Positions 21,235-33,041 of a stretch of 64,000 nt of DNA are shown here, in pieces. The DNA is from a bacterium (GTDB lineage Bacteria > UBA8248): positions 128,001-192,000 of the forward strand of contig CBDBZY010000031.1 in assembly GCA_965213685.1 (NCBI GenBank), written 5' to 3'. The translations under genes were made by a program, and so were the position numbers. The notes beneath the pieces are model-generated. The model saw only the letters and a program-made list of their open reading frames with translations. It was not told where the DNA came from and ran no database searches. How positions within the stretch are numbered: the stretch's first letter is position 1; each line of letters starts with the position of its first letter.

Positions 21235-22269
21235 CTATTTCGGGGCGGGGAAATGATTCCAGGCGAGATTTTCCAGCGCCGCCACCCCGTCGGCGCGCTT
21301 CACGGAAACGCCTCTTGCGGACGGCACGATCTCTCCGACGGGCGTGAGCGGCCCCCCGCCCGCCCGCCGGACGACCTCCTGCAGCGCGCGAACGGACTCT
21401 GGCGGAGCGGTGAGGAGGAGCTCGTAATCCTCTCCGCCATGCAGCACCCACTCCAGGGGGGCGCGCGCCGCGGCGGACGCCGCCTCGGACAGCGCGGCGG
21501 AGACGGGCAACGCCTGCTCCCAGAGGACGGCGCCCACCCCGCTCGCCGCGCAGAGGTGATGGATGTCGCCCGCCAGACCGTCGCTGATGTCCATCATGGA
21601 CGTGGCCAACCCCGATTCCGCGATGGCCATCCCCTCCGCGACGCGAGGACGCGGCCGCAACTGCGCGGAGGTGAGCCGCGCGTATGACGCATCCGCGAGC
21701 CGGTTCCGCGGACGGGACAACAAATGCAGCCCGGCGGCGGCATCGCCCAAATGCCCCGTCACCAGAATCCGCTCCCCGGGGCGGGCGCCGCTGCGGCACA
21801 GGACGTTTTCCCGCATCATCTCGCCAACGACGAACACGTCGATGAACAGGGGACCTTCCGTGCGCGTGACGTTCCCGCCCAAAACGAGGACGCCGTATCG
21901 CTCCGCCAGCGCGCGCACCCCCTCATACGCATCATCGAGAAACGAGACCGCCGTATCTTCGGGGACGCCCAGGGAGATGAGCGCGAAGCGCGGCCTCCCG
22001 CCCATGGCCGACACGTCGCTCAGGTTCACCGCCAGCGACTTGTGGCCCACGGAGAAGCCGGAGGCGTCCGCGGAGGATGGAAAATGCACGCCGCCCACCT
22101 GCGCGTCGCACGTCATCACCCAGCATTTTTCGCCACCCGCCCCGATGACGGCCGCATCGTCCCCGTTGCCGACGAGGACGTCCGCGCCCGCGCGCGCCGG
22201 GCCGAGTTTGCCTCTCAGGCGCTCTATCAGGGCGAACTCGCCGACCCCCCCCGCCGATTCGACGCTCAC
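21235..22269 (-). CDS. thiL: Thiamine-monophosphate kinase
   Basis: GEFALI, GDDAA, NLSDVSAMG, MMDISDGL, GGEDYELL; GTG start overlaps the thiE stop. Confidence 0.92.
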   Translation of the reverse strand: MSVESAGGVGEFALIERLRGKLGPARAGADVLVGNGDDAAVIGAGGEKCWVMTCDAQVGGVHFPSSADASGFSVGHKSLAVNLSDVSAMGGRPRFALISLGVPEDTAVSFLDDAYEGVRALAERYGVLVLGGNVTRTEGPLFIDVFVVGEMMRENVLCRSGARPGERILVTGHLGDAAAGLHLLSRPRNRLADASYARLTSAQLRPRPRVAEGMAIAESGLATSMMDISDGLAGDIHHLCAASGVGAVLWEQALPVSAALSEAASAAARAPLEWVLHGGEDYELLLTAPPESVRALQEVVRRAGGGPLTPVGEIVPSARGVSVKRADGVAALENLAWNHFPAPK

Positions 22270-22910
22270 CCCCTCGCCCTCTCCACGCGGTCCCGCAATT
22301 CCCTGGCCGCGGCTTCCGGGTCGGGCGCCCCCATCACCGCCCCGATCACGGCGACGCCGGATGCGCCGGCCGCCATCAGGGACTCCACGTTCTCGACCCC
22401 GATCCCCCCGATGGCGACGGCGGGCAATCCGGGAGCCCGCTCGATGATTTTCCGGAATCCCTCCGGCCCGATCGGCGCCCGCGCGTCCGCCTTGCTCCCC
22501 GTCGCGTAGACTGGACCCACGCCGATATAGTCCGCACCCTCGCCGGCGGCCCGCGCCGCCCATTCCGATTTTCCGGCCGTCACGCCGTAGAACAGCGCTT
22601 CGCCGGCCATCGCCCTGGCCCTCAGAAGCGGAAAATCCTCTTGCCCCAGGTGCACGCCGTCCGCACCGGAGGCCATCGCCACATCCACCCGGTCGTTCAC
22701 TGTAAAGGCGCAATCCGCTCCCTCCAGCGCCTCGCGCAGCTCATCCGCCAGACGAAGCGTCTCCATTCCGCTCATATGTTTCTCGCGGAGCTGAATCATG
22801 CTCGCCCCGCCCATCGCGGCGGCGCGCACCGCGTCCCTGAGCGCCCACCCGGAAGCCCGGGACAACATCCTCCGGTCGGTGATGACGATCAACGATGGGT
22901 CGAATCTCAT
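22266..22910 (-). CDS. thiE: Thiamine-phosphate synthase
   Basis: QLREK, VNDRVD, GVHLGQED, GPVYATGSK, AIGGI. Confidence 0.93.
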   Translation of the reverse strand: MRFDPSLIVITDRRMLSRASGWALRDAVRAAAMGGASMIQLREKHMSGMETLRLADELREALEGADCAFTVNDRVDVAMASGADGVHLGQEDFPLLRARAMAGEALFYGVTAGKSEWAARAAGEGADYIGVGPVYATGSKADARAPIGPEGFRKIIERAPGLPAVAIGGIGVENVESLMAAGASGVAVIGAVMGAPDPEAAARELRDRVERARG

Positions 22911-23003: not shown

Positions 23004-23612
23004 TTACGGAGACAAACCGGCCGCTTTCCCATCGGCGGCGGCGGGTTCGCGGGCGGCCGTTTTCCCCTGAAGCAGACGGCGTATCATCCCGCTCGCCCGG
23101 GCGCCGCTCCAGTCCGCGGTCCCCACGGCCCAGGCGGCCAGCCGCTGCTCGCGGTCGATGAGATAGACCGTCGGCACGAAGCGCACGTTGTGCGTCTGGC
23201 GAGACGTCCAGTCCCGGTCGTGCAGAACCGGATAGTTCAGACCTTTCCCCCTGGCCCACCTTTCCACAAGGCCTGCGCCCGCCCCGTCCACGGAAACGGC
23301 CAGAACCGTGAAATCCTCGCCCCCGTATTTCTTTTGCAGGGCGGAGAACTTGGGCATCTCCTTGTCGCACATCGGGCACCACGTGGCGAAGAAGGCGAGC
23401 AACACCACCTTCCCCCGAAAATCCCCGAGGTTGCGGGGATTTCCGGCGAGGTCCGGATATTGAAAATCCGGCGGCGGCACAGCGTTCTCCGGCGCCGCCC
23501 GCAGAACGTGGAAACGGCTTCTCTGCGCGTCGGCGGGAGAAGCCAGCATCCCCAGAAAAAGCAAGGCGGCCAGGGCGAAGACGTGAGGTCGGGAGAGCGG
23601 AATTGGTCGCAT
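23004..23612 (-). CDS. TlpA/ResA-family thiol-disulfide reductase
   Basis: GKVVLLAFFATWCPMCDKEMP, VPTVYLID; N-terminal signal/anchor. Confidence 0.88.
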   Translation of the reverse strand: MRPIPLSRPHVFALAALLFLGMLASPADAQRSRFHVLRAAPENAVPPPDFQYPDLAGNPRNLGDFRGKVVLLAFFATWCPMCDKEMPKFSALQKKYGGEDFTVLAVSVDGAGAGLVERWARGKGLNYPVLHDRDWTSRQTHNVRFVPTVYLIDREQRLAAWAVGTADWSGARASGMIRRLLQGKTAAREPAAADGKAAGLSP

Positions 23613-23757
23613 GACGCTTCCTCGTGTACACTGGAAGATGCCGTTCGCAAGATACCACATTTCTGCCCGTGCGAACCACGGCCCGTGCGAACCACGCAAG
23701 CGGGCGTCGCGCGGAATCCGGGCGGAAAGGGGATACATAATAAGGGGAGCGCCGGTC

Positions 23758-24618
23758 ATGTGGTCCATCCTGGTCGCGTTCTCGCTCCTCGCACTCCCCC
23801 CTCCCGCAGAGGGGGCGGCCCGCCGTTGCGCGGAGGATGCGGGCGTCGTCAGAATCCCGCCGGGCGCCTTCTGGATGGGCAGCGACAGGGCCGAGCGGGA
23901 CTATGGCTATCGAATCGGGAGCCGCGCCGCGCGCGCGGGGGGCTGGTTCGACAACTGGGAGCGTCGGCGCAAGCGCGTCGCCCTGCCCGAATACTTCATC
24001 GACAAGAATCTGGCGACCCAGGCCGCATACCGCCGCTTCATCCGGGCGAGCGGCCATCGCGCGCCCTTCATCTCGGCGGGGGACTATCAGCGCCAGGGCT
24101 ACCTCGTCCACCCGTATGCGTCCGTTCGCCGCTACCTTTGGACTGAAGACGAAAACGGCAGGCCCACCTACCCGGAGGGCCTCCGGCATCACCCGGTCGT
24201 GCTCGTGAGCCAATCGGACGCGGAGGCCTATTGCGCCTGGCGGGGCGGAAAATCCGCGGGGCGATACCGCCTGCCCACAGAGGCGGAATGGGAAAAGGCG
24301 GCGCGCGGCGCCGACGCCCGGTATTTCCCCTGGGGGAGCGCATTCGACCCCCGGCGCCTGAACCACGCCTACGCGGTGGGCGCCACGACGCCCGCAGGCG
24401 CATATCCGCAGGGAAGAAGCCCGTATGGCGTCCTCGACATGGCGGGAAACGTTTTTGAATGGACGTCGACCCCGTTTTCCCCATCAACCGCCACGATGAA
24501 AGGCGGCGGCTCCTGGGACGACCAGCCAGGCATCACGCGGGCGGCCGCCCGCCATGGCCGCGACCCGAAGGCCAGGCACTTGCTTTTTGGCTTTCGGTGC
24601 GTTTGCGCGAACCGATGA
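23758..24618 (+). CDS. Exported FGE-sulfatase (SUMF1-like) domain protein
   Basis: IPPGAFWMGS, HPVV, RLPTEAEWEKAARG, DMAGNVFEW, GFRC. Confidence 0.88.
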   Translation: MWSILVAFSLLALPPPAEGAARRCAEDAGVVRIPPGAFWMGSDRAERDYGYRIGSRAARAGGWFDNWERRRKRVALPEYFIDKNLATQAAYRRFIRASGHRAPFISAGDYQRQGYLVHPYASVRRYLWTEDENGRPTYPEGLRHHPVVLVSQSDAEAYCAWRGGKSAGRYRLPTEAEWEKAARGADARYFPWGSAFDPRRLNHAYAVGATTPAGAYPQGRSPYGVLDMAGNVFEWTSTPFSPSTATMKGGGSWDDQPGITRAAARHGRDPKARHLLFGFRCVCANR

Positions 24619-24801
24619 GGCCGCATTCTCCAAGAAGCGGCGCCGCGACCGGTCTGTCCGGAACACGGGGGAACGCTCCCGCATTCCACGCCGCCGCCCG
24701 ACGCGGAGCGTTCCCATGCGCCGACAAATGCGCCATATTCCCCCTTGGGCGTTGCGCCCCCGGCAGAGAATCTCCTTTCCCCGTTTGCGCAGGAGCGCGC
24801 C

Positions 24802-25401
24802 ATGACCTGGATAGAGCCCATCTCCCCGGACGCTGCGGAGGGGGCGACGAAAAAAATTCTCGAAGACCTGCGCGCGGCGAGAAAAGCGGTTCCCAGGCTC
24901 TTTCTCCAGATGGGCCGAAGGCCCGGCGTTCTGGCCGGACGCGAGACGCTCCGCCGCTCGGTCCACGGCGGCTCCAGCCTGGGCAGGAGGCGAGAGGAGC
25001 TGCTCGCCTTCTATCTGGCGGCCCACGGCGGGTGATACGGCTGAGCGATGAACCACGGGCAGTTGTTCCGTGACGCGTGCGATGACGTCTCCATCGCCGA
25101 AGTGGCCGAGATACTCGACGCGCCCGCCCGGGCGCGAGCGCTCGACTCGGCGGACCGCGCCATGCTCGCGTATGCGGCAAAAATGACCCGCGCGCCTCGT
25201 CAACTGAGCGAAAGCGACATCGCGCGCTTGCGGCGCGCCGGCTTCAGCGAGGACAATGTGGTCGACATCATCGCGGCCGCGGCCTACAGAAACTTCGCCA
25301 ACGCCATCAACCACGCCTACGGGTACGTAGAGCAAAATCCCGAAGGCCCCGCAGAGTTGCAGGCCGCCATCCAGAGGTTGAAAAGGAAAATCGGTGGATA
25401 A
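24802..25401 (+). CDS. AhpD/CMD-like peroxidase, predicted selenoprotein with a UxxU motif (TGA at 25033 and 25042)
   Basis: Continuous frame RREELLAFYLAAHGG-U-YG-U-AMNH...AMLAYAAKMT...LRRAGFSEDNVVDI...NFANAI; both TGAs sit at the AhpD CxxC-xxx-H positions; AGGAG RBS before 24802. Confidence 0.85.
25054..25072 (+). promoter_or_regulatory. Putative bacterial SECIS hairpin (UxxU AhpD)
   Basis: CACGGG-CAGTTGT-TCCGTG stem begins 9 nt after the second UGA; apical GU. Confidence 0.55.
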
Positions 25402-26143
25402 AAAATCCCGCGCCCTCTCCTCCGCCTCCTGGCTGGGCCTGTTCGTATCGCTCGCCTGCGCATTGGCCGCCCTGGCGTCGGGGATGGGCCATCGCTGGGG
25501 CTTGTGGGATTTCGGCGCGGGGTTCCAGATTCTGAAGGCCGCCTCCATCGTCGCGCTCCTCTCCGTGGCCGTCTCCATGACGGGGGGAGTGTTCGCCCTG
25601 CGCGACGCCGCCAGAGCTAGGACGCTGGCCGCCGCCGCCGGCGTCGCACTCGGCTTCGGCGTGGCGGGCTTTCTCCACGCGCAAATGCAGATCGCCAGAC
25701 GGGTGCCCAGAATTCACGACATCACGACGGACGCGAAAAACCCGCCCGCCTTCCGGGCCCTCCTCCCGCTGAGAGAGGGGGCGAAAAACCCGCCCGCCTA
25801 CGAGGGGGCGCGCGTCGGACGGCTCCAGCACAAGGCGTATCCCGACATCGCGCCGCTCCTCTCCCGGGAGTCCAGGAGAGAGGTTTTCGGGCGCGCTCTG
25901 GCGGCCGCGCGCGCCATGGGCTGGCGGGTGGTGGCTTCCGACCCGGAGGAAGGACGCATCGAGGCGTATGACGAGACGTTCTGGTATGGCTTCATCGATG
26001 ACGTCGTCATCCGGATAACGTCGGAGGATGGAGCGACGCGCCTCGACATCCGCTCGAAATCCCGCGTGGGCGTGGGCGACGTCGGAGCGAACGCCAGGCG
26101 GATTCGCGGCTTTTTCCAAAAAATGAAAACTGCGATACACTGA
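25394..26143 (+). CDS. DUF1499 domain membrane protein
   Basis: Three TM segments, then PRIHDITTD, AYPDI, WYGFIDDVVIR, DIRSKSRVG.GDVGANARRI. Confidence 0.88.
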   Translation: MDKKSRALSSASWLGLFVSLACALAALASGMGHRWGLWDFGAGFQILKAASIVALLSVAVSMTGGVFALRDAARARTLAAAAGVALGFGVAGFLHAQMQIARRVPRIHDITTDAKNPPAFRALLPLREGAKNPPAYEGARVGRLQHKAYPDIAPLLSRESRREVFGRALAAARAMGWRVVASDPEEGRIEAYDETFWYGFIDDVVIRITSEDGATRLDIRSKSRVGVGDVGANARRIRGFFQKMKTAIH

Positions 26144-26214: not shown

Positions 26215-28537
26215 ATGTCTGATTATCAGGTGCTGGGCAAACCCATCCCCAGGCTCGACTCGGCGGAGAAAGTCTCCGGATTCGCCGATTTTGGCGACGA
26301 TTTGCAAAGGCCCGGCCGCCTCGTCGCGAAATTGCTCCTCAGCCCGCACGCCCACGCCAAAATCCGGAAAATCGACGCCCGCGCGGCCCGGCAAGTCCCT
26401 GGCGTCCACGCCGTCGTCACGGCGGAGGATTTCTCCGGCATTCGCCACGGGAGGCTCGTGCGCGACGAGCCGCTGCTGGCCATCGACAAGGTGCTGTATA
26501 TCGGCGAGCGGGTGGCGGCCGTCGCCGCCGAGACCCCGGAGGCCGCGCAGGCGGCGATCGAGAAAATCCGTGTGGACTATCAAACCCTCCCCGCCGTGTT
26601 CACGACGGAGGACGCCCTCCAAGACGGGGCACCGCTCCTCCATGAGTCGCTGGATGATTTCATATCGTTTCCGGGCATCGTCCGCTATGGAAACGTGGCC
26701 GCGGAGATTCTCGTGCGCTCGGGCGATCCCGTCGAGGACGCGCTGGCGCGCGCCGATTTCGTCTTTGAGGACGCATACGAAACGCCCCGCGTTCACCAGA
26801 ATTATCTCGAACCGCGCGCCATGCTCGCCGAGCCCGGCCCCGAGGACAGCACGATCGTGCATTCCCCCACCCAGGCGGCCTTCGTGGTGCGCGCCATCTG
26901 CGCGGAAATCCTCGAACTGCCCATGAACAAGCTGCGCGTGGTGAGCACCCACGTGGGAGGGGCCTTTGGCGGCAAATCCCAGCACCTGCTGGAAGCCGTG
27001 GCCGTTCTGCTGAGCAGAAAGACGAACCGGCCCGTTCAGCTGACCCTCAGCCGCGAGGAGGAGACCATCACCGGAAACCCGAGACACGCCTACCACATGC
27101 GCTATCGGACGGGCGTGACCGGGGAGGGGAGGATCATCGCGCGCCATGTGGAAATCACATCGAACAACGGCGCCTATTGCATGACGGGGCCCATGGTGCT
27201 GGGAAAGTCCTGCTACACCAGCGGGGGGCCATACAAGATTCCCCACGTCCGGGTCGACGGCCTCCTCGTATATACGAACCTGCCCCCCAGCGGCTCCTAC
27301 CGGGGGCTGGGCGTGGCGCAGGTCGCCTTCGCCTGCGAGCGTCACACCGACCGCATCGCCTCCGAACTGCGAATGGACCCCCTCGCCTTTCGGCTCCGCA
27401 ACGCGATGGATGAAAACGACCGCGACCCCGCCGGCACGATCCTGCAAAGCGTGAGCATCAAGGAAACGCTGGAGTGCGCGGGCAGGCGGGCCGGCTGGAA
27501 GGAGCGGAGCGGCAAGCGCCGGGGCGGCGGCAGAATCCGGCGGGGGCGGGGCATCGGCTGCGCGCGCTACCCCACGGGGGGCGGCGCGTCGGGGGCTGTC
27601 GTGAAGGTGAACGAGGATGGCGGCCTCGCCGTGCTGGCCGGGTGCTCCGACCTGGGCACGGGAGCGGCCACCCTGATGGCGCAGGTGGCGGCGGAGGTCC
27701 TCCAGTCGGAGGTTGCGAAGGTGCGCGTTCACGTCGCCGACACCGAAACCACGCCCTTTGACGCCATCACCGCCGGCAGCCGAACCACGTTCAACATGGC
27801 ACACGCAGTGCGCATGGCGGCGGAGGACGCGCGGGAGCAGATGCTGCGCCAGGCGGCGCGCACCCTCGAATCCTCGCCGGAGGATTTGGACATCGGCGAG
27901 GGGAACATATTCGTGCGCTCGGCGCCCTCGCGCGCCATTCCGTTCGCCGAGGTGGCGCACGCGGCCGTCTGGAAGGGCGACGGCCCCGTGACGGGGCGCG
28001 GCGCCTACCGCGGAGAGAATCCGCCCCACCGGGCACACAACGTGCGGGGGCATCCGGAACCATCGAGGCCGGGGCCGGAATTCGCCACCCAGATCGCCGA
28101 GGTCGAAGTCGACGTCGAGACGGGAGAAACCTCGGTCGTGCGGATCACCAGCGCGCAAGACGTGGGCTTCGCCATGAACCCCCTCACCCTGAACGGCCAG
28201 ATAGAGGGGGGGCATCGCGCAGGGGCTGGGCTGGGCGCTGGCCGAGCGGATTCACCATGAGGGCGGCCTCATCACCCACCCGGACTTCGAGAGCCAGCTC
28301 AATCCCACGAGTCTGGACGTCTCGGACGTCGAGAGCGTGATCGTGGAATCGCCCGACGCGGAGGGCCCCTTTGGCGCGAAAGGAGCGGGGGAGATGCCGC
28401 TCATTCCGGCTGCGCCCGCCATCGCCAACGCGATTGCCGACGCCATCGGGGATCCGGCGAACCCGCACCTCAACAGGCTGCCCATCGCACCGGAAGACAT
28501 CGTCCGCGCGGTTCGGGAGAACAGCCCCGCCCCCTAG
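26215..28537 (+). CDS. Xanthine dehydrogenase/CoxL-family molybdopterin-binding subunit, apparent frameshift in G-run ~28208
   Basis: SPHAHAKI, YLEP, VGGAFGGK, YRGLG, AGSRTT, GQIEGG|IAQGLG, GPFGAKGAGE. Confidence 0.9.
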
Positions 28538-28538
28538 T

Positions 28539-29822
28539 CTATTCGTTTTTCAACGCGAACGTTTCGTCGTAAATATCAAAGCTGGAAGACGCCGCCATAT
28601 CCCGCGCCCGCGCGATGAGCCGGCGCGACAACGCGGAGATATTCGGGTTTTTGAGGAAATTGACGTAGAAGCCGTGATAAAAGGCGTCGGGCCGCACATG
28701 CACGCGCACCCGGAGCCGCACGGCGCCCTTCGCGCGCCTCCTTCCATATCGGAACGTGATGGATTTTTGCGGGGGAATGCGCGTGTCATATATCTCGCGA
28801 CGAAAATCCGGCGATAGTTTCCGCTCCATCACGTCCACCTGCCTCGAACCCGGTATGGTCTCTCCCTTCTCGTCCTCCATCTCGGAGATGAGGTCCACGG
28901 CGGGCGTGATGTAGGTGGGAAAATAATGACCGGCCCCTGAATTCGTGATCGTGATCCGGGCGGCGACGCGCTCCCCCGGGACCTTCTCGTCGAGTGCGAC
29001 GTCTATCTGCACGGCACCCTGGGTCATCTCCTTGTCATGGATTCCCCGCCACAGATGCGCGCGCCCGGGCATGTGGCAACTCTGGCAGGCGACGCCCTCC
29101 GCACCCCAAAGCGAGTTTTTCCATTCATTGTATGTATTCTGAATCGGCTTTCCGTTCGGCCCGGCGAACGTGTGCTGGTGGCAGCCCATGCAAAACTCCG
29201 CGCGGCTGAAGAAAGGCGTGCGCTCCACTCCGGCGTGCGGGCCGCTGCTCGTCGCGTCGTTCACCCCCTCCGGGGTATCCTTCTTGGGCGGGCCATGCAC
29301 CCTCCACTGCCGCACATGACATGCGGCACAGGCCAGGCCATGCATCTCCAGCTGCGGGTCGTGCGTCGGGTTTTTCCCCCAACGCGCAAAGGGGCCCACG
29401 CCCAGCTTCGCCTTTTTCTGCTGCTCCGCCAGAGGCGCGTGGCATTCGTTGCAGTCCCGCGCCCCCTCGGGATCCGTCTCCCACATATCGACGAGTTGTC
29501 CATAGAAGCCCGGGCTCATCGCCTTGGCGTGAAGGGTGGTTCGCCACTGCTTGTACTGCTCGGGATGGCAGCCCCCGCAACTCTCGGGCCGAAGGGAGCG
29601 CTCGGCGCCCTCGTATGATTTGGGCGCCTCGCCCATGGGAGGCAGCGGATAGCGAAAATGCGCGTCCACAAAATCTCGCCAATCCTTCCATTTTCCGGGA
29701 CGCGCCTCCTTCCCCGCCGCCTCGACGGAGGGGTGGGCGGGCGCATCCGGCGCATCCTGCGAGACGCAGGGGATGAGGACGAAGAAAATACCGAGAACGG
29801 CTATCCTGAACGCAAAACGCAT
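28539..29822 (-). CDS. Pentaheme cytochrome c (c554/c552-like)
   Basis: Five CxxCH motifs (CGGCH, CNECH, CAACH, CMGCH, CQSCH), N-terminal signal and GAGHYFPT C-terminal domain. Confidence 0.88.
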   Translation of the reverse strand: MRFAFRIAVLGIFFVLIPCVSQDAPDAPAHPSVEAAGKEARPGKWKDWRDFVDAHFRYPLPPMGEAPKSYEGAERSLRPESCGGCHPEQYKQWRTTLHAKAMSPGFYGQLVDMWETDPEGARDCNECHAPLAEQQKKAKLGVGPFARWGKNPTHDPQLEMHGLACAACHVRQWRVHGPPKKDTPEGVNDATSSGPHAGVERTPFFSRAEFCMGCHQHTFAGPNGKPIQNTYNEWKNSLWGAEGVACQSCHMPGRAHLWRGIHDKEMTQGAVQIDVALDEKVPGERVAARITITNSGAGHYFPTYITPAVDLISEMEDEKGETIPGSRQVDVMERKLSPDFRREIYDTRIPPQKSITFRYGRRRAKGAVRLRVRVHVRPDAFYHGFYVNFLKNPNISALSRRLIARARDMAASSSFDIYDETFALKNE

Positions 29823-30141
29823 CGCACGCTTCCTGAGCCGGCGGCCGGCCTGCGCGTTCCATCTATTTTTGCGGCGCGACATTCGCGCGAAGACGCGCCG
29901 GAGCGGGAAAAACGCAAGGAATTGTAGCGTCCCCGTCCGTCTGTTTCCAGCGGGCATCCAGACCGCCCCCCTTTCCCGAGGGGGGTGCGCTCCGCCGCCA
30001 AAGGAGCCGGTGGTTCGTCGCCTGCGAAAAACGACGCCCTCCCGGTGCGGGCGCGGCGACTTTTACTTGCGGGATGGAATCCGATAGGGTCTGTGCGTCC
30101 AGACGACCGATTCCGACGCTTCCCGCCGAACCTGGAGTCCT

Positions 30142-31397: not shown

Positions 31398-32684
31398 TTG
31401 TTGGACATTCGCCTTATCAGAAACGATCCGGAAGGGGTGGCGCGCGCCCTCGCCCGCAGGGGCGGTGCCTGGGGCATCCCGGAGGTGCTGGAAATCGACG
31501 CCCGAAGACGGGACTTAACCCATCGGGTCGAGAGCCGGGTGGCCGAGGTGAGAAAACGCAGCAAGAAAATCGGGGAGCTCAAGCGCAACAAGGCGTCCGA
31601 TGAGGAGGTGGCGGCGTTTCTGAACGAGAGTCACCGATTGACGGCCGAGGCCAAATCCCTGGAGGGAGAGCTCGCGGGCCTCGCGCAAAAGCAGAACGAC
31701 CTCCTCCTCGGCCTGCCCAACGTGCCGCATGCAACCACGCCCGACGGACAAGGCCCGGCCGAGAATGCCCTCCTGAGAGTCTCGGGCGAGAGGCCGGCTT
31801 TCGACTTCCCCCCCAAGCCGCACGACGAGCTGGGCGACGCCCTCGGCATTCTGGACATGAAGCGCGCCGCAAAAATAGCCGGTGCGCGCTTTGCGCTATA
31901 CCGGGGGGCGGGCGCGCGCCTGGAGCGCGCCTTGATCAACTTCATGCTCGATCTGCATACGAGCGCGCACGGCTACACCGAGTGGCTTCCGCCGTTCATG
32001 GTGAACCCCAAGGCCATGACGGGCACTGGCCAGCTGCCCAAGTTCGAGGAGGACCTCTTTCGGGTGGACGACGGGCGATACTACCTGATCCCCACCGCCG
32101 AGGTCCCCATCACCAACATCCACCGGGAAGAAATTCTCGACGGGCGGGATTTGCCGCTCAAATACACGGCCTACACCCCCTGTTTTCGCAGCGAGGCGGG
32201 CTCCTACGGCCAGGACACGCGCGGCCTCATCCGCCAGCATCAGTTCAACAAGGTGGAGCTCGTCCAGTTCAGCCGGCCGGACGGGAGCTATGAGGAGCTG
32301 GAAAACCTGACGGCCGACGCCGAAGAGGTGCTGAGGCACCTGGGGCTGCACTACCGGGTCGTCACGCTGTGCGCGGGAGACCTCGGGTTCTCGGCCGCCA
32401 AAACGTATGACATCGAAGTCTGGGTCCCCTCCCAGAACACGTACCGCGAAATCTCCTCCTGCAGCAACTTTGAGGATTTTCAGGCCAGGCGCGCCGCGAT
32501 TCGCTTTCGCCCGCAGCCGGGGGCCAAACCCGAATTCGTCCACACGCTGAACGGCTCCGGCCTCGCCGTCGGTCGCACCCTGGTGGCGATTCTGGAGAAC
32601 TTCCAGAGAGCCGACGGAAGCGTGGAGATACCCGAAGCCCTGAGAGCCTACATGGGCGGGCGGGAGAGGATTGTGGCTGCCTGA
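31398..32684 (+). CDS. serS: Seryl-tRNA synthetase
   Basis: [61 protein letters not shown]. Confidence 0.97.
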
Positions 32685-32773
32685 ACGGCTCGTCCGTTCT
32701 TCATCCGCCGTCGCGCGCCATGGTCGCGCGCCATGCTAGTATGGTTCCGGAGTTTCCGCCTCCCGGGGTGTGC

Positions 32774-32859
32774 GGAGGGATGGCCGAGCGGCCGAAGGCG
32801 GTGGTCTTGAAAACCACTGAGCGAAAGCTCCGGGGGTTCGAATCCCTCTCCCTCCGCCA
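32774..32859 (+). tRNA. tRNA-Ser (anticodon TGA)
   Basis: GGAGGGA/TCCCTCC acceptor stem, G73-CCA, anticodon loop CT-TGA-AA, long variable arm, GGTTCGAATCC. Confidence 0.95.
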
Positions 32860-32949
32860 TGGAAAACGCCGGATGCGGCAGGTCGGGAATCCTCCGGACG
32901 GCGGGGATAGCCGCCGGAGAGGTTGTGCGATAGAATGAGCACCCCGCAC

Positions 32950-33041
32950 GGAGAGATGGCCGAGTGGCTGAAGGCGCTCGCCTGCTAAGCGAGTAGGCTG
33001 GGAAACTGGCCTCGAGGGTTCGAATCCCTCTCTCTCCGCCA
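32950..33041 (+). tRNA. tRNA-Ser (anticodon GCT)
   Basis: GGAGAGA/TCTCTCC acceptor stem, GCCA end, anticodon loop CT-GCT-AA, long variable arm. Confidence 0.95.

What the first reader, a model, noticed from the sequence alone, without database searches (positions are those of the whole stretch)
24802..25401. AhpD-like protein with a double-selenocysteine UxxU active site (candidate diselenide peroxidase)
Seen: the ORFs ending at 25035 and starting at 25048 are one frame, GGG-TGA-TAC-GGC-TGA-GCG-ATG-AAC-CAC, giving G-U78-Y-G-U81-A-M-N-H in a 199-aa protein. Known: AhpD/CMD peroxidases use E...CxxC-xxx-H, and both TGAs land on the two Cys while the upstream Glu and downstream His are kept. CxxU AhpD selenoproteins are known; UxxU/diselenide chemistry is known mainly from the thioredoxin-fold SelL family. 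I do not know of a described UxxU AhpD. Inference: a diselenide-forming AhpD that needs two UGA recodings 9 nt apart, apparently from one hairpin (25054-25072, 18 and 9 nt downstream), which strains the fixed-spacing model of bacterial SECIS.
Basis: partly seen in the sequence, partly recalled or inferred. Interest (0 to 1): 0.9.

Follow-up and report, generated by a model that had tools for sequence, protein, structure and literature searches.

The report
Double-selenocysteine AhpD-like redox protein
This is a real, conserved gene for an AhpD-type antioxidant-family protein in which both active-site cysteines are replaced by selenocysteine codons, a two-selenium version of a selenoprotein family that two recent reviews list only with one.

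Summary
Window 24802-25401 (+) is one 199-codon frame with TGA at codons 78 and 81 (G-U-Y-G-U-A-M-N-H). It belongs to the AhpD-like/"peroxidase-related" family (TIGR01926, CMD fold; AlphaFold model matches PDB 6K40). Both TGAs fall on the family's CxxC cysteines, with Glu66 and His85 kept.

It is neither an error nor a pseudogene. The same HGG-TGA-TAY-GGN-TGA is kept in 24 of 51 genomes of the phylum (three genera). dN/dS is 0.17 upstream and 0.25 downstream of the TGAs. Synonymous sites are frozen only around codons 79-91. selA, selB and tRNA-Sec are present. selD is present but frameshifted at homopolymers, probably by assembly errors.

The UxxU genes form one clade, sister to a CxxU paralogue found in the same genomes. 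One hairpin (25054-25072) puts its apical loop 25 and 16 nt after the two UGAs. Both distances lie within the published 16-37 nt bacterial SECIS model, so the spacing model is not strained.

AhpD-like CxxU selenoproteins and UxxU motifs in other folds are known. A UxxU AhpD-like form is absent from the passages I read in two reviews. Verdict: a new variant of a known kind. Sec insertion and diselenide chemistry remain inferred.

The parts
24802..25401 (+). Coding sequence of the 199-residue AhpD-like (TIGR01926 / CMD fold) protein, read with two TGA as Sec; stop TAA at 25399-25401
   Evidence: AlphaFold2 model pLDDT 95.6; Foldseek 6k40_A TMq 0.77; dN/dS 0.17 (codons 1-77) and 0.25 (codons 94-199) among 23 orthologues
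24997..24999 (+). Codon of Glu66, the conserved acidic residue 12 positions before the first Sec (aligned with the Glu of ERELLA in PDB 6K40)
25024..25026 (+). Codon of His75, invariant in all 23 UxxU sequences compared and replaced by Ile/Leu in the 6 CxxU sister paralogues compared
25033..25035 (+). UGA1, codon 78, at the first Cys position of the family's CxxC
25042..25044 (+). UGA2, codon 81, at the second Cys position (the Sec position of the known CxxU AhpD-like selenoproteins)
25054..25072 (+). Putative SECIS hairpin: stem CACGGGC / G-(bulged U)-UCCGUG, apical loop AGUU at 25061-25064. The first stem codon is the catalytic His85 codon
   Evidence: synonymous sites frozen at codons 79-91; fits the four published bSECIS criteria
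25045..25097 (+). Possible lower helix enclosing the hairpin (25045-25050 pairing with 25092-25097); weak support
   Evidence: 79% of cells paired, 3 pairs with changes on both sides; inconclusive
25394..26143 (+). Downstream DUF1499 gene overlapping the stop of the AhpD-like gene by 8 nt; probably co-transcribed
   Evidence: DUF1499 follows the UxxU gene in 18 of 18 same-genus loci and in L057
26215..28260 (+). Xanthine-dehydrogenase-family molybdopterin-binding subunit gene, next in the same direction; frameshifted in this assembly at the G7 run 28206-28212
23611..24618 (+). Upstream FGE-sulfatase-domain gene, 183 nt before the AhpD-like gene
   Evidence: By my reading of the table it is also upstream of the UxxU gene in 4 of the 18 distinct other same-genus loci and, as full-length matches, in 2 of the 5 loci from other genera (2 more give only 22-39-residue matches, 1 none)

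Best explanation
The locus encodes a functional selenoprotein of the AhpD-like 'peroxidase-related' family (TIGR01926/COG2128, carboxymuconolactone-decarboxylase fold). Both cysteines of the E...CxxC...H redox centre are encoded by UGA and are most likely both inserted as selenocysteine (U78-Y-G-U81). Shown: the gene, its fold, the position of both TGAs, their conservation, purifying selection on both sides, and the presence of selA, selB and tRNA-Sec. Inferred: SelB-tRNA(Sec) is recruited by a single in-frame SECIS hairpin at 25054-25072. Its apical loop lies 25 nt after UGA1 and 16 nt after UGA2, so one element serves both codons in succession. Also inferred: the protein cycles between a diselenol and a diselenide (or selenenic acid) state. 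In that cycle it would act as a peroxide or disulfide/hydroperoxide reductase like its CxxC relative DR_1765 of Deinococcus radiodurans and like AhpD of Mycobacterium tuberculosis, with His85 and Glu66 as the proton relay. On the quick tree the UxxU genes form one clade beside a CxxU paralogue that persists in the same genomes, with CxxC homologues outside. This suggests the order CxxC, then CxxU, then UxxU. The sister CxxU genes appear to use a different hairpin 8 nt further downstream, so the SECIS seems to have been repositioned when the second UGA arose.
For: Gene and family:
- a single frame with two TGAs.
- PF02627 scores 24.9 bits (cut-off 23); TIGR01926 scores 83.5 bits (cut-off 81.8).
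- 6k40_A at E 1.2e-16, with its CxxC aligned to U78/U81.
- model pLDDT 95.6; Foldseek TMq 0.77 to 6K40.

Conservation:
- 25 database relatives of 116-118 aa all start at the Met after UGA2. They are truncated gene calls; the two that carry a name are called 'hypothetical protein'.
- the HGGUYGU motif is present in 24 of 51 genomes of the phylum (G000, 18 of 22 same-genus genomes, 5 from two other genera) at 49-78% identity.
- among 23 distinct orthologues (253 pairs), dN/dS is 0.17 N-terminal and 0.25 C-terminal, with dS about 0.9. dS is 0.37 in the 12 codons after UGA2.
- in 19 same-genus sequences, a single codon is used at 7 of 10 invariant degenerate columns in codons 79-91, against 2 of 37 and 4 of 47 elsewhere.
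- Both internal stops are always TGA, in 24 of 24 distinct coding sequences. Terminal stops are TAA in 17 and TGA in 6 of 23.
- Met83 is Val or Ile in the other genera, so a separate C-terminal start is not conserved.

Hairpin:
- 93% of cells are paired. Energies are -6.8 to -10.5 kcal/mol in 16 distinct UxxU sequences. Loops are AGUU or GGUC.
- the hairpin meets the published bSECIS criteria.

Sec machinery:
- selB 369.8 bits, selA 564.2 bits, and one tRNA-Sec(UCA) at 78.6 bits. All lie on contigs of 65-66% G+C, like the window.
- 21 of 22 same-genus genomes have an intact selD with 1 TGA.

Relatives:
- quick tree gives the UxxU clade SH-aLRT 99, the CxxU sister clade 97, and both together 95.
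- passages of PMC8945050 report that the DR_1765 mutant is H2O2-sensitive and that complementation depends on the CxxC cysteines.
Against: - There is no direct evidence of Sec insertion. No RNA or proteome data were available, and the organism is uncultured.
- The hairpin shows no compensatory double changes (0 of 7 pairs). Its stem encodes His-Gly and Phe-Arg, so part of its conservation could be constraint on the protein.
- The hairpin energy (-7.6 kcal/mol) only just meets the -7.5 criterion. The 81-nt region folds no better than shuffled sequence (z = +0.78). The 16-nt spacing for UGA2 is at the lower limit of the model.
- Rfam gave no match.
- selD of this assembly is broken into three frames. 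I attribute this to homopolymer insertion errors, like the one in the neighbouring XDH gene, but a true pseudogene is not excluded.
- The TIGR01926 score passes its cut-off by only 1.7 bits.
- Peroxidase or diselenide chemistry is untested for any member of this clade.
- The tree is the quick one; the careful search did not finish.
Confidence: 0.72

Rival explanations
1. The gene is functional and both UGAs are recoded, but only one position (probably U81, as in the CxxU relatives) receives Sec. The other is decoded as Cys, for instance by a SelB-dependent tRNA(ReC)/selC*-type tRNA or by near-cognate suppression. The protein would then be effectively CxxU, or a mixture.
For: PMC13582414 (passages) reports that tRNA(ReC)-like genes are more frequent in genomes with UXXU hydrogenases (about 56% against 2.3%) and raises this possibility. 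The 25-nt spacing of UGA1 differs from the 16 nt of UGA2, so efficiencies could differ. No data here distinguish Sec from Cys at either site.
Against: Only one tRNA-Sec-like gene was found in G000. RF01852 gave one hit above the gathering score, and seven of the eight weaker hits examined are Leu, Ser or Tyr tRNAs; the ninth is an ordinary tRNA. A whole-genome ARAGORN run gives a single tRNA-SeC. ARAGORN's 98-nt 'tRNA-Cys(gca)' at C13 has no Rfam tRNA match at E<=1. TGA at codon 78 is kept in 24 of 24 distinct orthologues at dS about 0.9, although TGC or TGT is one mutation away. That argues that UGA gives something Cys codons do not.
Confidence: 0.12
2. Both residues are Sec, but the protein is not a peroxidase. 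The H75-x2-U78-x2-U81-x3-H85 cluster would bind a metal or metalloid or carry selenium or sulfur. Alternatively it would serve as a very low-potential reductant for a partner encoded nearby (DUF1499 protein, XDH-family molybdoenzyme, FGE-like protein).
For: His75 is invariant in the UxxU clade and is Ile/Leu in the CxxU sister clade. Other bacterial UxxU proteins listed in the 2026 review include a metal-binding protein (NF041115), and UXXU occurs as a Ni ligand motif in hydrogenases. The UxxU gene is followed by DUF1499 and an XDH-family gene in 18 of 18 same-genus loci, and none of these genes neighbours the CxxU paralogue. The same fold also hosts non-peroxidase enzymes such as the debrominase Bmp8 (6OHJ).
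Against: The Glu66/His85 relay typical of AhpD-type redox catalysis is kept. The nearest characterised relative acts in H2O2 defence. Synteny with XDH is not seen in the other genera within the flanks fetched. Neighbour annotations show no selenium or metal link above any curated cut-off.
Confidence: 0.13
3. Not a selenoprotein: a pseudogene, a split gene expressed as two polypeptides, a sequencing artefact, or a lineage that reads TGA as a standard amino acid.
For: Gene callers split it: 25 truncated database entries of 116-118 aa. The assembly does contain indel errors.
Against: Both TGAs are conserved in 24 of 24 distinct orthologues and in 2 of 2 metagenome loci, and they are never TAA or TAG. 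Purifying selection acts on both halves. The Met after UGA2 is not conserved as a start. Contigs of a 98%-identical strain carry both TGAs. TGA is used as the true terminator in 6 of 23 orthologues, and selA and selB have no internal stops, so TGA is not a general sense codon.
Confidence: 0.03

Closest known systems
AhpD-like selenoprotein family (COG2128/YciW, TIGR01926; 'AhpD-like 1' of Zhang & Gladyshev 2008, PMC2398784)
   Same: [quoted passage not shown] The family was abundant in marine metagenomes (299 sequences in GOS; passages).
   Different: The family is listed as CxxU with one Sec in the 2008 paper and in the 2022 and 2026 reviews (passages). Here the first Cys is also UGA (UxxU), His75 is clade-specific, and the SECIS hairpin lies about 8 nt closer to the motif than in the sister CxxU genes.
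Deinococcus radiodurans AhpD-like protein DR_1765 (PDB 6K40) and the structural-genomics 'peroxidase-related proteins' 2PRR, 3C1L, 2PFX, 2OYO
   Same: Best sequence and fold matches. CxxC, Glu and His align. DR_1765 contributes to H2O2 tolerance in a CxxC-dependent way (PMC8945050, passages).
   Different: All of these are Cys proteins at 19-27% identity. None has Sec.
Other bacterial UxxU selenoproteins: Prx-like thiol:disulfide oxidoreductase / SelL-type, metal-binding protein NF041115, FmdB-family protein, UXXU Group 4 [NiFeSe] hydrogenases
   Same: Two UGA codons separated by two sense codons. A single downstream SECIS is proposed to serve both (PMC13582414 discussion; the SelL paper of 2007 from recall only, not held).
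   Different: Unrelated folds (thioredoxin fold, HMA-like, zinc ribbon, hydrogenase large subunit). In the hydrogenases the motif ligates Ni rather than forming a redox dithiol.
Mycobacterium tuberculosis AhpD (PDB 1KNC/1GU9)
   Same: Archetype of the E...CxxC...H mechanism (recalled knowledge). Same superfamily (PF02627).
   Different: Only a distant structural match here (Foldseek E 0.2-0.5, TMq about 0.4). It has a different domain arrangement, its partner is AhpC/lipoamide, and it has no Sec.

Membership tests
CMD/AhpD superfamily (PF02627) | Match to the Pfam model above the gathering score | tested here: met
   24.9 bits against a cut-off of 23, residues 112-177
CMD/AhpD superfamily (PF02627) | All-helical AhpD-like fold | tested here: met
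   AlphaFold2 model with pLDDT 95.6 and ten helices. Foldseek: 6k40_A E 6.8e-07, TMq 0.77; also 2prr, 3c1l, 2oyo, 2pfx
Peroxidase-related enzyme subfamily TIGR01926 (COG2128/YciW-like) | Whole-protein score above the NCBIfam cut-off | tested here: met
   83.5 bits against 81.8, residues 3-177 of model positions 2-175/178. The margin is narrow
AhpD-type redox centre | Glu ... C/U-x-x-C/U-x-x-x-His in register with characterised homologues | tested here: met
   E66, U78, U81 and H85 align with E, C, C and H of 6K40. H85 is invariant and position 78 is at least 90% Cys in a 56-sequence alignment. 91 of 150 representative homologues are CxxCxxxH
AhpD-type redox centre | Peroxidase or disulfide-reductase activity | not testable with these tools
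   Needs purified protein
Known AhpD-like selenoproteins (CxxU) | Exactly one Sec, at the second motif position | tested here: not met
   The second position is UGA as in the family, but the first is UGA too. The CxxU form exists as a separate paralogue in the same genome (G000:C42:44216-44791)
Bacterial SECIS consensus model (bSECISearch criteria as given in PMC13188914, section 5) | 3-9 nt apical loop and 4-16 bp upper stem | tested here: met
   4-nt loop AGUU and a 7-bp stem with one bulged U
Bacterial SECIS consensus model | G in one of the first two loop positions | tested here: met
   AGUU in the window's genus and GGUC in three of the four distinct sequences from the other genera. L057 folds with a shorter loop, or a GGUCC loop by my own manual pairing
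Bacterial SECIS consensus model | [quoted passage not shown] | tested here: met
   25 nt for UGA1 and 16 nt for UGA2 (coordinates). UGA2 sits at the lower limit
Bacterial SECIS consensus model | MFE <= -7.5 kcal/mol | tested here: inconclusive
   -7.6 kcal/mol for the window. The range is -6.8 to -10.5 over 16 distinct orthologues, with 3 weaker than -7.5
Bacterial SECIS (function) | Binding by SelB and hairpin-dependent UGA read-through | not testable with these tools
   Needs a reporter assay. Supporting but indirect: synonymous-site freezing at codons 79-91
Sec-decoding organism | selA, selB, selC and selD present | tested here: inconclusive
   selA, selB and tRNA-Sec are intact. selD is present with its own TGA but is frameshifted at G/C homopolymers in this assembly. 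It is intact in 21 of 22 same-genus genomes
SelL / Prx-like UxxU family | Thioredoxin fold | tested here: not met
   The fold is all-helical AhpD-like. Only the motif is shared

The most novel reading that the evidence does not exclude
The UxxU clade is a natural experiment in SECIS placement and diselenide chemistry. When the second UGA arose, the SECIS was rebuilt 8 nt upstream. The old hairpin, with its loop 24 nt after the single UGA, is kept in the sister CxxU paralogue of the same genomes. The rebuilt element places one SelB-binding loop at 25 nt and 16 nt from two UGAs, which would define the functional reach of a bacterial SECIS. The product, with clade-specific His75 next to U78/U81/His85, would be either the first diselenide-forming AhpD-fold enzyme or a Se2His2 metal or selenium-handling site working with the co-transcribed DUF1499 protein and the XDH-family molybdoenzyme.
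Probability: 0.3. Interest if true: 0.7.

Novelty: new variant of a known kind. Interest (0 to 1): 0.52.

Why it matters
- Two selenocysteines three residues apart in a bacterial gene with an in-frame SECIS test how far one SECIS/SelB complex can reach and whether it can act twice in quick succession. Here the same genomes carry a one-Sec paralogue with a differently placed hairpin, which gives a built-in control for reporter experiments.
- A diselenide in the AhpD fold would extend very low-potential Se-Se redox chemistry beyond the thioredoxin fold.
- Public gene calls for this clade are truncated entries of 116-118 aa, and the two that carry a name are called 'hypothetical protein'. The family is therefore missed by standard annotation in a lineage already noted as among the most selenoprotein-rich bacteria (PMC13326102).

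Tried and rejected
- Rfam scan of 24000-26000 at E<=10 gave only two chance lncRNA matches and no SECIS or other family.
- Folding 25025-25105 as one piece gave a z-score of +0.78, no better than shuffles. The case for the hairpin therefore rests on conservation, not on energy.
- The hairpin shows no compensatory changes. A possible lower helix (25045-25050 with 25092-25097) is 79% paired with some double changes. The alignment mixes paralogues and the controls are not decisive, so I left it as 'possible'.
- Sequencing runs: no RNA holder was listed, so nothing can be said on expression. Run X5 does not cover the TGAs. Only contigs were available, not raw reads.
- Pseudogene, split gene, sequencing error and alternative genetic code were each considered and rejected, as set out under rival explanations.
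- tRNA(ReC)/selC* was searched with RF01852, ARAGORN on the loci and on the whole genome and Rfam on the one odd ARAGORN call. None was found. A divergent allo-tRNA could still be missed.
- The metagenome scan gave only 2 loci, both UxxU, so it says little about breadth.
- The careful maximum-likelihood tree did not finish in 300 s. I report the quick tree (SH-aLRT only, midpoint root) and did not run test_one_clade, so the order CxxC, CxxU, UxxU is parsimony on an unrooted quick tree.
- Neighbour genes were scanned against Pfam and NCBIfam for a selenium or metal link. Nothing scored above a curated cut-off. The AIR-synthase-like gene is ThiL, not a second SelD.
- No complex prediction was run, because no binding claim is made. 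I could not measure Se-Se or His distances because model coordinates are not exposed.

Rows dropped:
- L041-L050 and L053-L056 duplicate L024-L037 (the same genomes from two collections) and were removed as identical coding sequences.
- L063 was left out of dN/dS and codon counts because my script found no ATG start. It is included in the motif, hairpin and tree analyses.
- L030 and L051 were left out of alignment A2 (28 of 30 references given) because they are identical to L029 over those 72 nt.
- L084 gave no motif match in my script.
- P0002-P0026 were excluded from the motif tally because they are C-terminal fragments.

Literature:
- The claim that a UxxU AhpD-like protein is not in print rests on full-text searches for 'UxxU'+'AhpD' (3 papers), 'UxxU'+'selenoprotein'+'bacteria' (5 papers), 'YciW'+'selenoprotein' and 'Nitrospinota'+'selenocysteine'.
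- It also rests on passages returned by term searches in PMC2398784, PMC9312934, PMC13188914, PMC13326102 and PMC13582414. I read passages, not whole papers.
The supplementary tables of these papers, and the BSepDB database itself, could already list such entries.
- The SelL paper (PNAS 2007) is not held, and what I say of it is recalled.
Full report
**1. The observation**

Reading 24600-25600 and listing ORFs confirms that the ORF ending at 25035 and the ORF starting at 25048 are in one frame. With TGA read as U, 24802-25401 gives a 199-residue protein with TGA at codons 78 (25033-25035) and 81 (25042-25044).

**2. Family and fold**

- Pfam gives the carboxymuconolactone decarboxylase (CMD/AhpD) family at 24.9 bits, cut-off 23.
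- NCBIfam gives TIGR01926 'peroxidase-related enzyme' at 83.5 bits, cut-off 81.8. The dedicated selenoprotein models NF053654 and NF041238 score far below their cut-offs.
- The best solved relatives are 6K40 (the AhpD-like protein of Deinococcus radiodurans, E 1.2e-16), 3C1L, 2PFX, 2OYO and 2PRR. In the printed alignment U78 and U81 face the two Cys of CxxC, and E66 and H85 face the conserved Glu and His.
- An AlphaFold2 model built from a 56-sequence alignment has pLDDT 95.6 and pTM 0.90. It puts U78 just before, and U81 in the first turn of, helix 79-92.
- Foldseek returns the same AhpD-like structures, with 6k40_A at TMq 0.77.
- Among 150 representative homologues from the 1.84-billion-protein library, 91 carry CxxCxxxH at the aligned positions. 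Two are N-terminal fragments that stop right after ...GGCYG or ...GGCTG, which marks them as CxxU forms.

**3. Is it real?**

- The word-index search returned 25 relatives of 116-118 aa, 48-100% identical. All begin at the Met that follows UGA2. Gene callers everywhere therefore truncate this gene at the same place, and the two entries that carry a name are called 'hypothetical protein'.
- In the DNA, all 14 of 14 species-representative loci from genome contigs read GG*YG*AMNHG, with a conserved N-terminal half upstream.
- A six-frame search of 51 genomes of the phylum found a match with two TGAs at 49-78% identity in 24 genomes. These are G000, 18 of 22 same-genus genomes, one genome of a second genus and four of five genomes of a third. 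One further '2 TGA' hit at 29% identity is a CxxU gene that ends in TGA.
- Every one of these loci shows H-G-G-U-Y-G-U-A-[MVI]-N-H-G.
- Two metagenome loci show the same motif.
- Among 23 distinct orthologues, mean dN/dS is 0.17 for codons 1-77 and 0.25 for codons 94-199, at dS about 0.9. The 3' half is therefore not decaying.
- The internal stops are always TGA. True terminators are TAA in 17 and TGA in 6 of 23.
- Met83 is Val or Ile in the other genera, so the C-terminal piece has no conserved start of its own.
- Logan contigs from three runs carry both TGAs. One comes from a 98%-identical strain.

These results exclude sequencing error, pseudogene, split gene and a TGA-sense genetic code.

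**4. Sec machinery**

- G000 has selB (369.8 bits) and selA (564.2 bits) side by side on contig C5, and one tRNA-Sec(UCA) at 78.6 bits on C44.
- selD lies on the window's own contig, about 26 kb before the window. It has the typical K-A-G-G-U-G-S-K Sec site, but it is broken into three reading frames.
- Aligned with a relative's intact selD, the differences are single-base insertions, mostly in G or C runs.
- The XDH-family gene inside the window has the same kind of frameshift at a G7 run (28206-28212). I therefore read these as assembly errors.
- 21 of 22 same-genus genomes have an intact selD with one TGA.
- A true selD pseudogene in this one genome cannot be excluded without reads.

**5. 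The recoding signal**

The hairpin is CACGGGC-AGUU-G-(U)-UCCGUG, and its first codon is that of His85.

- Across 27 distinct sequences (UxxU and CxxU together) 93% of cells pair. There are only one-sided changes (G-U to A-U, C-G to U-G) and no double changes.
- The RNA-level constraint shows in synonymous sites. dS falls to 0.37 in the 12 codons after UGA2.
- Within the window's genus a single codon is used at 7 of 10 invariant degenerate columns in codons 79-91, against 2 of 37 before and 4 of 47 after. Examples are Leu88 always TTG and Arg90 always CGT.
- The 2026 review (PMC13188914, section 5, passages) gives the consensus bacterial SECIS criteria: a 3-9 nt loop, a 4-16 bp stem, G in the first two loop positions, 16-37 nt from UGA to the apical loop, and MFE <= -7.5 kcal/mol.
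- Here the loop is AGUU in the window's genus and GGUC in most of the other-genus sequences. It starts 25 nt after UGA1 and 16 nt after UGA2. The energy is -7.6 kcal/mol, with a range of -6.8 to -10.5 over 16 distinct orthologues.

One hairpin therefore satisfies the model for both UGAs. A single SECIS for UXXU has also been suggested for Group 4 [NiFeSe] hydrogenases (PMC13582414).

**6. Relation to the CxxU paralogue**

- The same genomes, G000 included (C42:44216-44791), carry a paralogue at 44-54% identity with one TGA and the motif [IL]-G-G-C-Y-G-U-T.
- On the quick tree the 24 UxxU sequences form one clade (SH-aLRT 99) beside the CxxU clade (97). The two together (95) are separate from CxxC database homologues.
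- Five more distant paralogues of the phylum that carry a TGA are all CxxU.
- In 6 of 8 distinct CxxU sequences the best local hairpin is not the CACGG/CCGUG one (-3.0 to -6.8 kcal/mol, 7-9-nt loop, without a G in its first two positions in 7 of the 8). It is instead GCUUUC-CGUGCU-GAAAGC, whose loop starts 24 nt after the UGA (-6.5 to -10.5 kcal/mol).
- In the UxxU genes that second hairpin is absent, at -0.9 to -3.8 kcal/mol.

This suggests, as inference, that the SECIS loop moved 8 nt upstream in the UxxU lineage. That shift would keep about 25 nt to the new UGA while still reaching the old one at 16 nt.

**7. Mechanism**

By family membership, the most likely chemistry is a redox cycle at U78/U81 with His85 and Glu66 as the proton relay. 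It would be like the CxxC centre of DR_1765, whose loss sensitises D. radiodurans to H2O2 (PMC8945050, passages), and like M. tuberculosis AhpD (recalled). With two Sec residues the oxidised form would be a diselenide. None of this is tested.

His75 is specific to the UxxU clade. The gene is followed by a DUF1499 gene with an 8-nt overlap and then an XDH-family molybdoenzyme gene in 18 of 18 same-genus loci, a context the CxxU paralogue never has. This leaves room for a metal, selenium-handling or partner-specific role.

A second rival is that one UGA is read as Cys by a tRNA(ReC)-type tRNA, as discussed for UXXU hydrogenases. I found no such tRNA.

**8. Novelty**

- AhpD-like selenoproteins are long known and abundant: 'AhpD-like 1', COG2128, CxxU, 299 sequences in GOS (PMC2398784).
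- The 2022 and 2026 reviews list TIGR01926/COG2128 as CxxU with one Sec. They list UxxU only for a Prx-like oxidoreductase, a metal-binding protein (NF041115) and an FmdB-family protein. UXXU hydrogenases were added in 2026.
- My full-text searches found no UxxU AhpD-like protein. Supplements and the BSepDB database could not be seen.
- BSepDB's paper ranks this lineage among the most selenoprotein-rich bacteria.

I file the finding as a new variant of a known kind. It is a real, conserved double-Sec form of a known selenoprotein family, with a possibly repositioned SECIS. It is interesting to specialists but not a break with known principles.

Noticed in passing
whole assembly G000 (contigs C64, C18, C41, C16 and others): The assembly looks chimeric. 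22 contigs (4.90 Mb) have G+C below 55% and carry many copies of a tRNA-derived, SINE-like repeat: ARAGORN 'tRNAs', including 42 'tRNA-Pyl', 49 Thr and 33 Ala. 49 contigs (3.07 Mb) have G+C of 55% or more. These include the window's contig (65.5%) and the contigs with selA/selB, tRNA-Sec and the CxxU paralogue. Relatives have 2-4.6 Mb genomes. The low-G+C part is probably DNA of another, possibly eukaryotic, organism that marker-gene contamination scores do not see.
   Followed up: partly
G000:C31:101342-102000 (about 26 kb before the window) and window 28206-28212: selD and the XDH-family gene are frameshifted by single-base insertions in G/C homopolymer runs relative to relatives. This points to indel errors in this assembly. 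selA, selB and the AhpD-like gene are intact.
   Followed up: partly
G000:C42:44216-44791 and loci L060-L091: A CxxU paralogue (44-54% identical) coexists with the UxxU gene in most same-genus genomes. It appears to use a different SECIS hairpin (GCUUUC-CGUGCU-GAAAGC, loop 24 nt after the UGA). In one genus (L088, L089) that hairpin is weak.
   Followed up: partly
genomes G023, G024, G025, G034: Four of 22 same-genus genomes lack the UxxU gene but keep the CxxU paralogue. G024 holds two identical stop-free matches to residues 114-199 only (67% identity), possibly 3' remnants of the UxxU gene.
   Followed up: no
loci L068-L071 and table: SelD itself is a selenoprotein (one in-frame TGA in the K-A-G-G-U-G-S-K site) in 21 of 22 same-genus genomes.
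   Followed up: no
proteins P0002-P0026: Public gene calls for this clade are C-terminal fragments of 116-118 aa that start at Met83. The two with names are 'hypothetical protein'. The selenoprotein is not annotated as such.
   Followed up: no
window 31398-33038: Seryl-tRNA synthetase gene (31398-32684) is followed by two tRNA-Ser genes (about 32772-32857, anticodon UGA, and 32949-33038, anticodon GCU). These gave sub-threshold hits to the tRNA-Sec model.
   Followed up: partly
window 28539-29957 (-), 23004-23768 (-), 21235-22713 (-): Neighbours on the opposite strand are a multihaem cytochrome c, a secreted TlpA/ResA-like thiol-disulfide oxidoreductase (WCPMC motif) and ThiL with a roughly 150-residue N-terminal extension. 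ThiL gave a sub-threshold selD hit.
   Followed up: no
loci L060, L065, L066 downstream of the CxxU paralogue: Read-through translations show a metallo-beta-lactamase-like gene (HxHxDH motif) directly after the CxxU paralogue in several genomes. This context differs from that of the UxxU gene. The family name comes from the motif as I recall it and was not tested.
   Followed up: no
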